22,295 nucleotides of DNA from a virus (lineage: Duplodnaviria; Heunggongvirae; Uroviricota; Caudoviricetes): the IMG/VR virus record IMGVR_UViG_2579779049_000014, positions 1 through 22,295 of that record, one strand, 5' to 3'. The number at the start of each line of letters is the position of its first letter. Position 1 is the first letter of the stretch. This document shows positions 2,994 to 3,439 of this stretch, piece by piece. The translations under genes were made by a program, and so were the position numbers. The notes below the pieces were generated by a model, which was not told where the DNA came from, did not search any database, and worked only from the letters and a program-made list of their open reading frames with translations.

Positions 2994-3142
2994 GGGTCGG
3001 AAATATATCCAGTATTTCCGAAGTGTATGGAGGATTACCTACCGCTACACCCTTGGCAACCGCAAGCCAAGGATAGCGGTTCTCCCAACAAACTACAACC
3101 TGTTCGGGTAAACAGGCTGTATACAAAAACAGGAGAAAAGCT

Positions 3143-3277
3143 ATGGCTCACGATGTTAATCGCGATGACTTCATCTACGAACACGACAAGCCGGTTTATG
3201 TGCGCAGTTACTGCCGCATACGTTTCGGTGAGCTCGAACATGTTCGTCAGCACTTCCGCTCTTATCCGAGCTGCTGA
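3143..3277 (+). CDS. Small basic protein (44 aa), hypothetical
   Basis: ATG at 3143 with AGGAGAA 5 nt upstream; MAHDVNRDDFIYEHDKPVYVRSYCRIRFGELEHVRQHFRSYPSC; followed by a terminator. Below the track's size cutoff. Confidence 0.35.
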   Translation: MAHDVNRDDFIYEHDKPVYVRSYCRIRFGELEHVRQHFRSYPSC

Positions 3278-3293
3278 AAATAACTAAATCTCA

Positions 3294-3320
3294 AACCCGG
3301 CCACCGAGCCGGGTTTTCTT
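3294..3320 (+). terminator. Rho-independent terminator
   Basis: CCCGGC-CACCGA-GCCGGG followed by TTTTCTT. Confidence 0.65.
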
Positions 3321-3439
3321 TGCCTTACGATCCCCCCACCTAAAAAACATAACCAATTGTATTTATTGATGTAACTCGCTAAACCATGCAGTTATGATCC
3401 CTGCCCCATCACCTTCATCCTCAACATTTACAAAAATAA

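What the first reader, a model, noticed from the sequence alone, without database searches (positions are those of the whole stretch)
2994..3330. Small ORF with a highly structured leader and a perfect 8-bp inverted repeat
Just after the cassette terminator is a perfect inverted repeat CGGAAATA-N7-TATTTCCG (2998-3020), then an imperfect long hairpin CCGCTA-cac-CCTTGGC … GCCAAGG-a-TAGCGG (about 3039-3078) and a second hairpin CCTGTT-CGGGTA-AACAGG. Only then comes the well-initiated 44-aa ORF and its terminator. The region could encode a regulatory RNA or small-protein module rather than, or as well as, a protein.
Basis: seen in the sequence. Interest (0 to 1): 0.5.

Follow-up and report, generated by a model that had tools for sequence, protein, structure and literature searches.

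The report
Conserved structured leader of tiny prophage gene
The hairpins are real and belong to a conserved, previously uncatalogued folded RNA leader that travels with a terminator and a very small protein gene as a mobile mini-cassette in prophages of gut bacteria, most likely setting how much of the tiny protein is made.

Summary
The region folds far better than shuffles (z = -7.2).

The window is a Stx1 prophage immunity region. The feature is one unit: terminator hairpin T0, hairpin P1, long rod P2, hairpin P3, SD, small ORF, tImm-like terminator.

A covariance model built on this leader finds 90 full-length copies in 100 related loci. Covariation supports P1, P2 and P3, and G-U versus A-C counts point to a + strand RNA. 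Rfam has no match.

The unit follows at least three unrelated upstream genes and occurs once in tandem. The leader is kept while the small ORF is swapped among three protein families. The ORF here is a real gene (pN/pS 0.04-0.18).

In this window the 3' strand of P2 can instead pair with the SD and AUG, and that fold is 8 kcal/mol more stable. I therefore read the leader as a cis-acting gate on translation behind a leaky terminator. SD occlusion is not family-wide, so the mechanism stays inferred.

The function of the small protein is unknown. An unexplained extra: in most relatives the T0 and P1 loops are identical and change together.

The parts
2379..2407 (+). Promoter-like site TTGATT-17-TAGTAT for the 177-aa gene. 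It would drive the transcript that reads into the unit.
   Evidence: Sequence. The block TCTTGATTTG..TAtnAT is conserved upstream of homologous genes in alignment A2. It was not picked up by the strict consensus scan, so it is inferred.
2409..2435 (+). Hairpin GCCTCAT-caactgt-ATGAGGC plus T6, directly before the ATG. The likely SD (GAGG) lies in its 3' arm.
   Evidence: It is conserved in Klebsiella and Symbiopectobacterium homologues.
2436..2969 (+). 177-aa ORF (phrog_2602), the upstream gene of the unit in this window. It has an N-terminal 4-helix domain, a Lys-rich linker and an almost invariant C-terminal beta-beta-alpha segment.
   Evidence: There is a weak fold resemblance to an integrase N-terminal domain (3lys, prob 0.89, E 0.33).
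2968..2993 (+). T0, a terminator-type hairpin AAAGCCCCG-AGGGAA-CGGGGCTTT plus TT. It overlaps the stop codon and has flanking A and T runs, so it looks bidirectional. It is the conserved 5' edge of the unit.
   Evidence: flagged on the minus strand; five U follow the GC core on the + strand. GCCCCG/CGGGGC versus GCCCTG/CAGGGC is a compensatory change. T0 is present in every context.
2998..3020 (+). P1, a perfect 8-bp hairpin CGGAAATA-TATCCAG-TATTTCCG.
   Evidence: All 8 pairs show double changes in relatives (helix 1), e.g. GGAAGTT/AACTTCC, GGAGATA/TATCTCC and GGGAGCG/CGCTTCC (with G-U).
3023..3033 (+). Conserved GTGTATGGAGG. GGAG at 3029-3032 is the 5' strand of helix P2a, an SD-like sequence.
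   Evidence: Near-invariant columns in A5. P2a is 100% paired in 60 distinct sequences, and the type-2 leaders supply changes on both sides.
3041..3080 (+). P2b and P2c, the long hairpin. The base ACCGCTA/TAGCGGT is 3041-3047 with 3074-3080. The apical CCTTGGC/GCCAAGG is 3051-3057 with 3066-3072.
   Evidence: The base covaries (CCGCUA/UAGCGG, CCGGUA/UACCGG, CCGAUA/UAUCGG, UCAC/GUGG). The apical part is variable in sequence but remains a hairpin.
3080..3089 (+). TTCTCCCAAC. CUCC at 3082-3085 pairs either with GGAG 3029-3032 (P2a) or with the SD GGAG 3132-3135.
   Evidence: These are invariant columns.
3094..3121 (+). P3 hairpin: TACA-a-CCTGTT-CGGGTA-AACAGG-c-TGTA.
   Evidence: 5 of its 6 inner pairs show double changes and 86% of cells are paired (helix 5).
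3131..3145 (+). Translation initiation region: SD AGGAGA (3131-3136), GCTA (3140-3143) and ATG (3143-3145).
   Evidence: It is predicted to pair with 3074-3085, with a duplex of -16.1 kcal/mol (z = -4.9 against shuffled TIR). The pair probability is 0.999.
3143..3277 (+). 44-aa ORF, MAHDVNRDDFIYEHDKPVYVRSYCRIRFGELEHVRQHFRSYPSC (family A, phrog_21154). It is basic and predicted to be a three-stranded beta sheet.
   Evidence: pN/pS is 0.04-0.18. The model has pLDDT 76. A wider family shares the core VxVRxYxRxRxGxxExVRxH[YFW]RSxP.
3293..3322 (+). Intrinsic terminator AAACCCGGCC-accga-GCCGGGTTT plus a T-run. It is the tImm-type terminator of lambdoid immunity regions and the 3' edge of the unit.
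   Evidence: It is homologous to terminators annotated Timm in mEp234, HK106 and HK542. It is kept whichever small ORF precedes it.

Best explanation
The region is the structured 5' leader of a small-protein mini-cassette. The cassette order is T0 terminator hairpin, P1, P2 rod, P3, SD, 44-aa ORF, tImm-type terminator.

Transcription most likely comes from the promoter of the upstream 177-aa gene, and in a lysogen perhaps also from pRM. Most transcripts probably stop at T0, and a fraction read through.

In the read-through RNA the P2 rod forms first. P2 consists of GGAG:CUCC plus ACCGCUA:UAGCGGU plus the apical hairpin, and it leaves the ribosome site open. Once the SD and AUG are made, the 3' strand of P2 (UAGC..UUCUCC, 3074-3085) can switch partner. 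It then pairs with GGAGAA..GCUA (3132-3143), which closes the SD and start codon.

The leader would therefore limit synthesis of the small basic protein to a low level or to a short window after transcription.

What is shown: the anatomy, the conservation, the covariation of P1, P2 and P3, the strand, the coding status of the ORF, and the mobility of the unit.

What is inferred: read-through at T0, the open-to-closed switch, and its effect on translation. What the small protein does is not known.
For: - Fold z = -7.2.
- CM R1, built on this leader type, finds one full-length hit per locus in 100 loci. That is 90 hits. The sequence-divergent type-2 leaders are among them, at E 1e-9 to 4e-4.
- In the modelled structure 78% of cells are paired, against 35-50% when partners are slid. 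23 of 34 pairs have double changes, and 0 of 500 shuffles reach any measure.
- In the well-aligned helices P2b and P3 there are 56 G-U cells against 11 A-C cells. This indicates a + strand RNA rather than DNA palindromes.
- The spacing from upstream stop codon to small-ORF ATG is held at about 150-205 nt.
- For this window the closed fold is -60.8 kcal/mol and the full P2 rod with open TIR is -52.6.
- The anti-TIR duplex is -16.1 kcal/mol, z = -4.9.
- In type-2 leaders the same 3' strand pairs with the TIR over 13 bp (L004, z = -5.3). Between L004 and L041 a G-C pair becomes U-A in that helix, while the competing P2 pair becomes a mismatch.
- In seven type-2 leaders the 5' strand copies the TIR sequence, up to UACAGGUUAA (p 0.002-0.044).
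- No sigma-70-like promoter is found between T0 and the ORF.
- The ORF is under purifying selection.
Against: - Occlusion of the ribosome site is not a family-wide property. Mean predicted accessibility of the TIR is 0.55 for real leaders and 0.56 for shuffled-leader controls. The real value is lower in only 26 of 59.
- The anti-TIR duplex is weak (-3.8 kcal/mol) in the type-2 leaders that precede zinc-ribbon ORFs.
- In type-1 leaders the 5'-strand mimicry of the TIR is only the 4-mer GGAG, which is not significant by itself.
- The nearest-neighbour model gives the covariation-supported P2b helix a probability near 0 in this very sequence. Either the kinetic argument holds or the energy model is wrong here.
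- No transcript, termination-efficiency or translation data exist.
- The strong sequence conservation of the unpaired GUAUGGAGG and GGUUCUCCCAAC suggests that a partner (protein, ribosome or RNA) may be involved. The model does not name one.
Confidence: 0.42

Rival explanations
1. The conserved hairpins are passive. In this reading T0 plus P1 act as tandem, bidirectional insulators between the lysogenic operon and pL. P2 and P3 only stabilise the mRNA 5' region or space the ORF. There is no switch, and the small ORF is simply expressed weakly by read-through.
For: Family-wide TIR accessibility equals the shuffled control. T0 has flanking A and T runs and scores as a terminator on the minus strand. 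The unit sits at operon ends next to convergent or divergent genes in many contexts.
Against: A passive spacer would not keep near-invariant unpaired motifs (GUAUGGAGG, GGUUCUCCCAAC, ACAC) and a covarying 3-helix architecture across unrelated upstream and downstream genes. The TIR-complementary and TIR-mimicking strands in several members are beyond chance.
Confidence: 0.2
2. The leader, or a processed part of it, is a functional RNA in its own right. It could be a trans-acting sRNA, a protein-binding RNA or a decoy. The small ORF would then be a secondary, exchangeable passenger.
For: The leader is more conserved than what follows it. The same type-1 leader precedes family A or family B ORFs, and so does the type-2 leader. 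The invariant single-stranded motifs include an SD-like GGAGG and an anti-SD-like CUCC. In the prophage precedent IsrK, the short terminated isoform acts in trans on the read-through isoform (PMC4825925).
Against: There is no terminator or U-run after P3 that would define an sRNA 3' end. No promoter-like site follows T0. The distance to the ATG is tightly kept and the ORFs are under selection, which fits a cis-acting leader. No Rfam sRNA family matches.
Confidence: 0.15
3. It is a type I toxin-antitoxin-like locus. The small protein would be toxic. Its mRNA would be made inert by a long folded 5' UTR and would need processing, with an antisense or other RNA as antidote.
For: The structured 5' region is about 150 nt and the predicted fold closes the TIR. 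The product is tiny, a terminator insulates the locus from upstream transcription, and the location is a prophage. A genuine hok/sok locus lies elsewhere in the same window. From general knowledge, hok, tisB, zorO and dinQ mRNAs are built this way.
Against: The three small-protein families are hydrophilic, basic, beta-rich or zinc-ribbon-like, not hydrophobic membrane peptides. No promoter-like site was found on the minus strand. No antisense element is conserved across units with different ORFs. Toxicity has not been tested.
Confidence: 0.1
4. The hairpins act at the DNA level. T0 and P1 would be inverted-repeat sites with a central spacer, used by a recombinase or another DNA or ssDNA-hairpin-reading protein that moves or shuffles the promoter-less small-ORF cassettes.
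For: The unit is found behind at least three unrelated genes, once in tandem and once truncated. In 27 of 35 distinct type-1 leaders the T0 and P1 loops are identical over 6-10 nt, with 11 different loop sequences. Twice both loops are flipped to the reverse complement together. Identity plus tolerated flipping is what a DNA-level reader or a spacer-matching recombinase would allow.
Against: P2b and P3 show G-U wobble on the + strand only. P1 stems also contain G-U pairs. No recombinase travels with the unit. The two sites are only about 30 bp apart. The window itself and type-2 leaders lack the loop identity. No hybrid sites or empty sites were seen.
Confidence: 0.08

Closest known systems
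IsrK-orf45 locus of Salmonella prophage Gifsy-1 (Hershko-Shalev et al. 2016, PMC4825925)
   Same: Both are prophage loci in which transcripts either stop at an intrinsic terminator or read through. The read-through RNA carries a roughly 45-codon ORF whose ribosome site is held in an inactive structure, and alternative structures decide translation (abstract).
   Different: There is no sequence or structure homology: Rfam isrK gave no hit even at E <= 10. Here the RNA upstream of the terminator is a protein-coding mRNA, not an sRNA. No trans-activation has been shown. No anrP/antQ-type downstream genes are present, and the ORF is followed directly by a terminator.
Lambda cIII mRNA alternative structures (Rfam RF01804 Lambda_thermo)
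   Same: In both, translation of a small phage protein is set by two mutually exclusive mRNA folds, one of which hides the SD and AUG.
   Different: The true cIII element is present elsewhere in this window (5414-5472) and is unrelated. The present leader is about 150 nt, lies wholly upstream of the ORF, and shows no predicted temperature response between 20 and 45 C. RNase III involvement has not been tested.
Type I toxin mRNAs (hok, tisB, zorO, dinQ) - from general knowledge
   Same: Both have long, highly folded 5' regions, metastable co-transcriptional folds and very small products, and both occur on mobile elements.
   Different: The products here are not hydrophobic. No antisense RNA or promoter was found. 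The ORFs are exchangeable among three unrelated families behind one leader.
IS200 left end (terminator hairpin followed by an RBS-occluding stem-loop; Beuzon, Marques and Casadesus 1999) - from general knowledge
   Same: Both are mobile units that start with a terminator shielding them from outside transcription. That terminator is followed by a stem that covers the ribosome site of its gene.
   Different: The cargo here is a 44-50-aa protein, not a transposase. No terminal transposon hairpins or target sites have been recognised.
Phage morons (promoter-gene-terminator accessory cassettes in lambdoid phages) - from general knowledge
   Same: Both are accessory DNA in the rexAB position of the immunity region, bounded by a terminator, and both are shuffled among phages.
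   Different: The small-ORF unit has no promoter of its own by consensus scan. It begins with a terminator and carries a conserved structured leader. It rides behind other morons as a sub-cassette.

Membership tests
Any Rfam 15 RNA family | Covariance-model score at or above the family's gathering threshold. | tested here: not met
   In 2300-4200 at E <= 10 there were only sub-threshold terminator-driven hits (rimP, Phe_leader, isrJ at 18.6 against 37 bits). The gathering scan of the window and six related loci gave nothing in any leader.
Intrinsic (Rho-independent) terminators: T0 and the 3' terminator | A GC-rich hairpin directly followed by a U-run. | tested here: met
   3293-3316 plus TCTTTGCCTT was flagged on the + strand. 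T0 (2968-2991) was flagged on the minus strand, and on the + strand its GC core is followed by UUUUU. Termination efficiency was not measured. In many relatives the T0 U-run is only 2-4 nt.
SD-sequestering translational leaders (cis-regulatory mRNA switches) | Two mutually exclusive helices that share one strand, one of which covers the SD and AUG. | tested here: met
   3074-3085 pairs either with 3029-3047 (P2) or with 3132-3143 (TIR). The folds are -52.6 and -60.8 kcal/mol.
SD-sequestering translational leaders (cis-regulatory mRNA switches) | Comparative support for both alternative helices. | tested here: inconclusive
   P2 is clearly supported. For the closing helix, one compensatory G-C to U-A change was seen (L004 versus L041). 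Duplex z is below -1.64 in 52% of 60 sequences. The TIR columns cannot be aligned well enough for a formal count.
SD-sequestering translational leaders (cis-regulatory mRNA switches) | The ribosome site is less accessible than expected across the family. | tested here: not met
   Mean P(unpaired) is 0.55 for real leaders and 0.56 for shuffled-leader controls. The real value is lower in 26 of 59. The window itself scores 0.32 against 0.56.
RNA thermometers | The SD and AUG open with rising temperature. | tested here: not met
   In silico only. P(unpaired SD) stays at 0.17 from 20 to 45 C, and the AUG rises from 0.13 to 0.23.
Type I toxin-antitoxin loci | A small hydrophobic or membrane toxin. 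| tested here: not met
   The sequences are basic and hydrophilic. Family A is predicted as a 3-stranded sheet. Family B shows a weak treble-clef zinc-finger resemblance.
Type I toxin-antitoxin loci | A cis-encoded antisense or nearby sRNA antitoxin. | tested here: inconclusive
   No promoter-like site was found on the minus strand of 2200-3700. P3 read on the minus strand looks terminator-like. No transcript data are available.
Known anti-phage defence systems (PADLOC-DB 2.0) | An HMM match of the component proteins. | tested here: not met
   The 177-aa and 44-aa proteins had no hit. Only the neighbouring DUF3024 gene matches the candidate PDC-S43.
Riboswitches | A ligand-binding aptamer with a conserved pocket and ligand-dependent switching. 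| not testable with these tools
   Invariant unpaired nucleotides exist, but no ligand or gene-function link can be derived. The downstream genes are not metabolic.

The most novel reading that the evidence does not exclude
The unit may be a new kind of promoter-less micro-cassette system of temperate phages. A conserved leader RNA would act as a universal docking and expression module for interchangeable tiny nucleic-acid-binding proteins. The paired T0 and P1 hairpin tops, which are identical within a phage, differ between phages and flip together, would serve as a lock. That lock would be read by a still unidentified phage-specific factor or recombination process that gates read-through or moves the cassette.
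Probability: 0.12. Interest if true: 0.85.

Novelty: new variant of a known kind. Interest (0 to 1): 0.58.

Why it matters
Small proteins and their leaders in prophage accessory regions are mostly unannotated. In E. coli O55:H7 RefSeq, for example, the unit's ORF is not called at all.

This unit lies in the lysogen-expressed immunity region of Shiga-toxin phages, in the place where lambda carries rexAB. About 1% of complete E. coli genomes carry a recognisable copy (52 of 5426). It also occurs in Klebsiella, Salmonella, Enterobacter, Citrobacter, Serratia and Yersinia phages.

A covariation-supported RNA family that is absent from Rfam gives a concrete handle. It comes with defined helices and testable mutations, and it would allow one to ask how prophages dose tiny, possibly harmful proteins.

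The exchange of three unrelated small ORFs behind one leader is an unusual form of modular evolution. So are the concertedly evolving hairpin loops.

Tried and rejected
- **Rfam.** Nothing was found in the leader.
- **Leader peptide.** The conserved ATG at 3027 (MEDYLPLH...) has no SD. Its reading frame and length are not conserved, and it is absent from type-2 leaders. Rejected.
- **Minus-strand ORFs** (2917-3126 and 3035-3253). They are not conserved. Rejected.
- **DNA operator reading of the 8-bp palindrome.** The stems change by compensatory and G-U substitutions and the helix is part of a larger RNA model. Judged unlikely.
- **Own promoter between T0 and the ORF.** None was found by consensus scan. 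The TTGACG loops seen in some relatives have the wrong spacing to any -10 (my reading).
- **Thermometer.** No predicted response to temperature.
- **Function of the proteins.** Pfam, NCBIfam, PADLOC and PHROGs give only 'unknown'. Foldseek against the PDB gave no significant match for either model. The exhaustive phmmer search found only other tiny stand-alone proteins.
- **Partner for the identical T0/P1 loops.** No reverse-complement copy exists in any locus. One exact 10-mer lies inside the exonuclease gene of phage ST846-OXA48phi9.2, which is compatible with chance.
- **Global G-U versus A-C count.** Over all helices it was uninformative (86 versus 120), because P1 and P2c are poorly aligned. 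Only P2b and P3 were used.
- **Leaders of VT2-Sakai type and P0024 type.** Model R1 does not detect them. They show an analogous but not alignable architecture.
- **An error of mine.** The P2a constraint was off by one base. It was corrected.
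Full report
**1. Context**

The window matches the Stx1 prophage SH2026Stx1 and a few E. coli chromosomes at 98-100% identity. It is a lambdoid immunity region read in the reverse of the usual lambda map.

- cro lies at 824-1069 on the minus strand.
- A LexA-type cI repressor lies at 1130-1867.
- A DUF3024 gene lies at 1905-2246 and matches the PADLOC candidate PDC-S43.
- A 177-aa gene lies at 2436-2969 (phrog_2602).
- The finding follows at 2994-3330.
- After it come the pL-type promoter (TTGACC-17-TATCTT, 3497-3525), nutL, and N at 3716-4066.

The finding therefore occupies the place where lambda has rexAB and tImm. The terminator at 3293-3316 is homologous to terminators annotated Timm in mEp234, HK106 and HK542.

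**2. The observation**

The RNA fold of 2967-3150 is -76.2 kcal/mol, against -47.6 +/- 4.0 for shuffles (z = -7.2). The opposite strand folds about as well (z = -6.8). Palindromes alone therefore could not tell strand, nor RNA from DNA.

**3. A conserved unit**

The 177-aa protein has homologues of 35-100% identity in Enterobacterales prophages.

In almost all of these loci a small ORF of 40-61 codons starts 150-205 nt after the stop codon. It is followed by an AACCCGGCC..GCCGGGTTTT-type terminator.

The small ORFs fall into three families that are unrelated at sequence level:
- A, as in this window, with a divergent form in VT2-Sakai.
- B, of the pattern CxxCGNxC...PIPxCxC.
- C, about 57 aa.

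The spacer falls into four sequence types, and every type is hairpin-rich. Spacer type and ORF family are combined freely.

The same spacer plus small ORF also occurs behind quite different genes:
- Behind an XRE-ImmA/IrrE pair in Klebsiella phage ST846-OXA48phi9.2.
- Behind the same kind of pair in 47 complete E. coli genomes, for example O55:H7 RM12579. There RefSeq does not annotate the small ORF.
- Behind a 304-aa ORF in L230.

In L093 two units stand in tandem, a type-1 leader with an A ORF followed by a type-2 leader with a B ORF. In Yersinia phage YP3 a unit is cut off at the position equivalent to window 3041, next to a gin invertase gene.

In every context the unit begins with the same terminator-type hairpin, AAAGCCCYG-loop-CRGGGCTTT (T0).

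**4. RNA structure and covariation**

I aligned 25 type-1 leaders (A5). I then wrote a structure with these helices:
- P1.
- P2a (GGAG:CUCC).
- P2b (ACCGCUA:UAGCGGU).
- P2c.
- P3, with an outer extension.

From this I built covariance model R1.

Searching 100 loci (696 kb, both strands) gave 90 hits. All are full length, with one per locus (two in the tandem locus L093). All lie in the orientation of the small ORF. Type-2 leaders were found at E 1e-9 to 4e-4, although none was in the seed.

On the resulting alignment (60 distinct sequences):
- 78.1% of cells are paired, against 35-50% when partners are slid by 1-3 columns.
- 23 of 34 pairs show changes on both sides.
- The covariation score is 0.207, against 0.07-0.10 for slid partners.
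- No shuffle out of 500 reaches any of the five measures.

The alignment is fitted to the model, which favours the structure, so the slid control is the fairer comparison.

Examples read directly in the sequences:
- P2b occurs as CCGCUA/UAGCGG, CCGGUA/UACCGG, CCGAUA/UAUCGG and UCAC/GUGG.
- P1 occurs as GGAAAUA/UAUUUCC, GGAAGUU/AACUUCC, GGAGAUA/UAUCUCC and GGGAGCG/CGCUUCC.
- P3 occurs as CCUGUU/AACAGG, CCUGUG/CACAGG and GACUGUAA/UUACAGUC.

In the two helices that align cleanly (P2b and P3) there are 56 G-U cells against 11 A-C cells. This places the structure on the + strand RNA. A count over all helices was uninformative because P1 and P2c are not well aligned.

Rfam 15 has no family for this element. 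The Sakai-type and P0024-type leaders are not detected by R1, but they fold into an analogous series of hairpins.

**5. The small ORF is a gene**

Against 15 homologues the 44-aa ORF shows pS of 0.16-1.0 and pN of 0.01-0.15, giving pN/pS of 0.04-0.18.

An exhaustive phmmer search finds further 34-49-aa stand-alone proteins that share the core VxVRxYxRxRxGxxExVRxH[YFW]RSxP.

AlphaFold gives a three-stranded antiparallel sheet (pLDDT 76), and no solved structure matches it significantly.

No library assigns a function to families A, B or C. Family B shows a sub-threshold resemblance to a treble-clef zinc finger.

**6. How it may work**

No promoter-like site lies between T0 and the ORF. By contrast, the 177-aa gene has a conserved TTGATT-17-TAGTAT element. 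The small ORF should therefore be reached only by read-through of T0. The T0 U-run is 5 nt here and only 2-4 nt in many relatives.

Within the leader of this window, the strand 3074-3085 (UAGCGGUUCUCC) has two possible partners:
- The 5' strand 3029-3047, which gives P2a and P2b. This is the fold that covariation supports.
- The translation initiation region GGAGAA..GCUA at 3132-3143.

The second fold is the predicted minimum, at -60.8 kcal/mol. The complete P2 rod with a free SD is -52.6. An intermediate with P2b formed and only UCUCC:GGAGA closed is -53.8.

The closing duplex is -16.1 kcal/mol, z = -4.9 against shuffled TIRs.

P2 is transcribed about 50 nt before the SD. It should therefore form first, so the RNA would start open and relax to closed. 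This step is an inference.

Support from relatives is real but uneven.
- In the type-2 leaders that precede family A ORFs, the 3' strand pairs with the TIR over 13 bp (L004, z = -5.3).
- In those same leaders the 5' strand copies the TIR sequence, up to 10 nt (p = 0.002).
- L041 carries a G-C to U-A double change in the closing helix, and this costs a mismatch in P2.
- Across all 59 leaders, however, predicted TIR accessibility is no lower than with shuffled leaders (0.55 against 0.56).
- In the type-2 leaders that precede zinc-ribbon ORFs the closing duplex is negligible.
- No temperature dependence is predicted.

I therefore give the gate model a confidence of about 0.4. The main rival is a passive insulator or stabiliser reading. 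It does not explain the invariant unpaired motifs.

**7. Comparison with known systems**

The closest analogue in logic is IsrK-orf45 of Gifsy-1, which has a terminator, a read-through isoform and an inactive structure before a 45-codon ORF (PMC4825925). No homology to it was detected.

Lambda cIII also uses two alternative folds. Its own element is present elsewhere in this window (5414-5472).

Type I toxin mRNAs and the IS200 left end share the 'terminator or long fold plus hidden RBS' design. The products here are not hydrophobic, and no antisense RNA was found.

I file the element as a new variant of a known kind. It is a cis-acting mRNA leader, but it forms an uncatalogued family that is packaged as a mobile unit with exchangeable tiny ORFs.

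**8. An unexplained feature in relatives**

In 27 of 35 distinct type-1 leaders, the loop of T0 is identical to the loop of P1 about 30 nt downstream. Often the closing UG/CA pair is shared as well.
- 18 leaders share 10 nt.
- 7 leaders share 7 nt.
- 2 leaders share 6 nt.

There are 11 different loop sequences among loci, for example TGCGCTAACA, TGCTCTAACA, TGTTGACGCA, CTGCAAA, CTGATAA, CTGAGAA and TTTGCCG. For the 10-mers, 0-1 of 300 shuffles do as well.

Twice both loops appear as the reverse complement of those in another locus: CTGCAAA against TTTGCAG, and TGTTGACGCA against TGCGTCAACA.

The loops are identical rather than complementary, so they are not kissing loops. No complementary copy was found nearby.

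The window itself is an exception. Its T0 loop is AGGGAA and its P1 loop is TATCCAG. That P1 loop is the flipped form of CTGGATA, which is close to the CTGGAAA of its nearest relatives. Type-2 leaders also lack the identity.

I cannot explain this feature. It is the basis of the more novel reading given separately.

Noticed in passing
Related loci, e.g. L246:3000-3060, L017, L088, L090, L112, L218 (equivalent to window 2968-3020): The loops of the T0 and P1 hairpins are identical within a locus over 6-10 nt, about 30 nt apart. They differ between loci, with 11 variants. Twice both loops are flipped to the reverse complement together. The window and the type-2 leaders are exceptions.
   Followed up: partly
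L093:2489-3200: Two complete units stand in tandem behind one 198-aa homologue. The first is a type-1 leader with a family A ORF. It is followed by a second T0-like hairpin, a type-2 leader, a family B ORF and a terminator.
   Followed up: yes
L002 (Yersinia phage YP3) 2480-3110: A homologue of the 177-aa gene with T0, P1 and the first 20 nt of the leader. The unit is then broken off next to a gin serine-invertase gene on the other strand. The homology ends at the position equivalent to window 3041.
   Followed up: partly
window 1905-2246: A DUF3024 gene directly after cI matches the PADLOC candidate single-gene defence system PDC-S43 (E 7e-42). The same gene precedes the 177-aa homologue in L102 and L103, and a remnant seems to be present in VT2-Sakai.
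   Followed up: no
window 2379-2435: The 177-aa gene has its own conserved promoter-like TTGATT-17-TAGTAT. This is followed by a hairpin plus T6 that ends 1 nt before the ATG and contains the likely SD in its 3' arm. It is an unusual start for an mRNA and is conserved in Klebsiella and Symbiopectobacterium homologues.
   Followed up: partly
window 10660-10834: Rfam sok antitoxin RNA (113.5 bits, gathering score 59), so a hok/sok type I toxin-antitoxin locus lies in this prophage.
   Followed up: no
window 5414-5472: Rfam Lambda_thermo, the cIII thermoregulator element (88.5 bits). It overlaps the start of the cIII/kil region. The same element is in VT2-Sakai (L014:4219-4277).
   Followed up: no
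window 3572-3605 and 3716-4066: A nutL-like boxA (GCTCTTTAA, 3572-3580) and a boxB hairpin GCGCTGACAAAGCGC (3591-3605) lie upstream of an N gene (Pfam N_peptide). Its arginine-rich motif GNAKTRRHERRRKLAIER looks like that of P22 gp24 (from memory, not tested).
   Followed up: no
L246 (E. coli O55:H7 RM12579) 3170-3319: The family B small ORF of the unit (49 aa, MAMGTCRKCG...) is not annotated in RefSeq, where the stretch 3001-3434 has no feature. 47 complete E. coli genomes carry this version behind an ImmA/IrrE gene in the nin region.
   Followed up: partly
L014 versus L068, first hairpin after the large ORF: The apical part of the hairpin is ACTCCCCAGT in VT2-Sakai and ACTGGGGAGT in Salmonella phage Oslo-type loci. 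This is a flipped hairpin top, so loop inversion is a recurrent mutation in these leaders.
   Followed up: no
window 2436-2969: The 177-aa protein has a well-predicted N-terminal four-helix domain, weakly similar to the N-terminal domain of a phage integrase (3lys). A disordered Lys-rich linker follows. The C-terminal 40 residues (KTFELPIPLRGDLIVTIGNLPRDLTKEEAKRIS.IVESFA) are almost invariant while the N-terminal domain diverges to 35% identity.
   Followed up: partly
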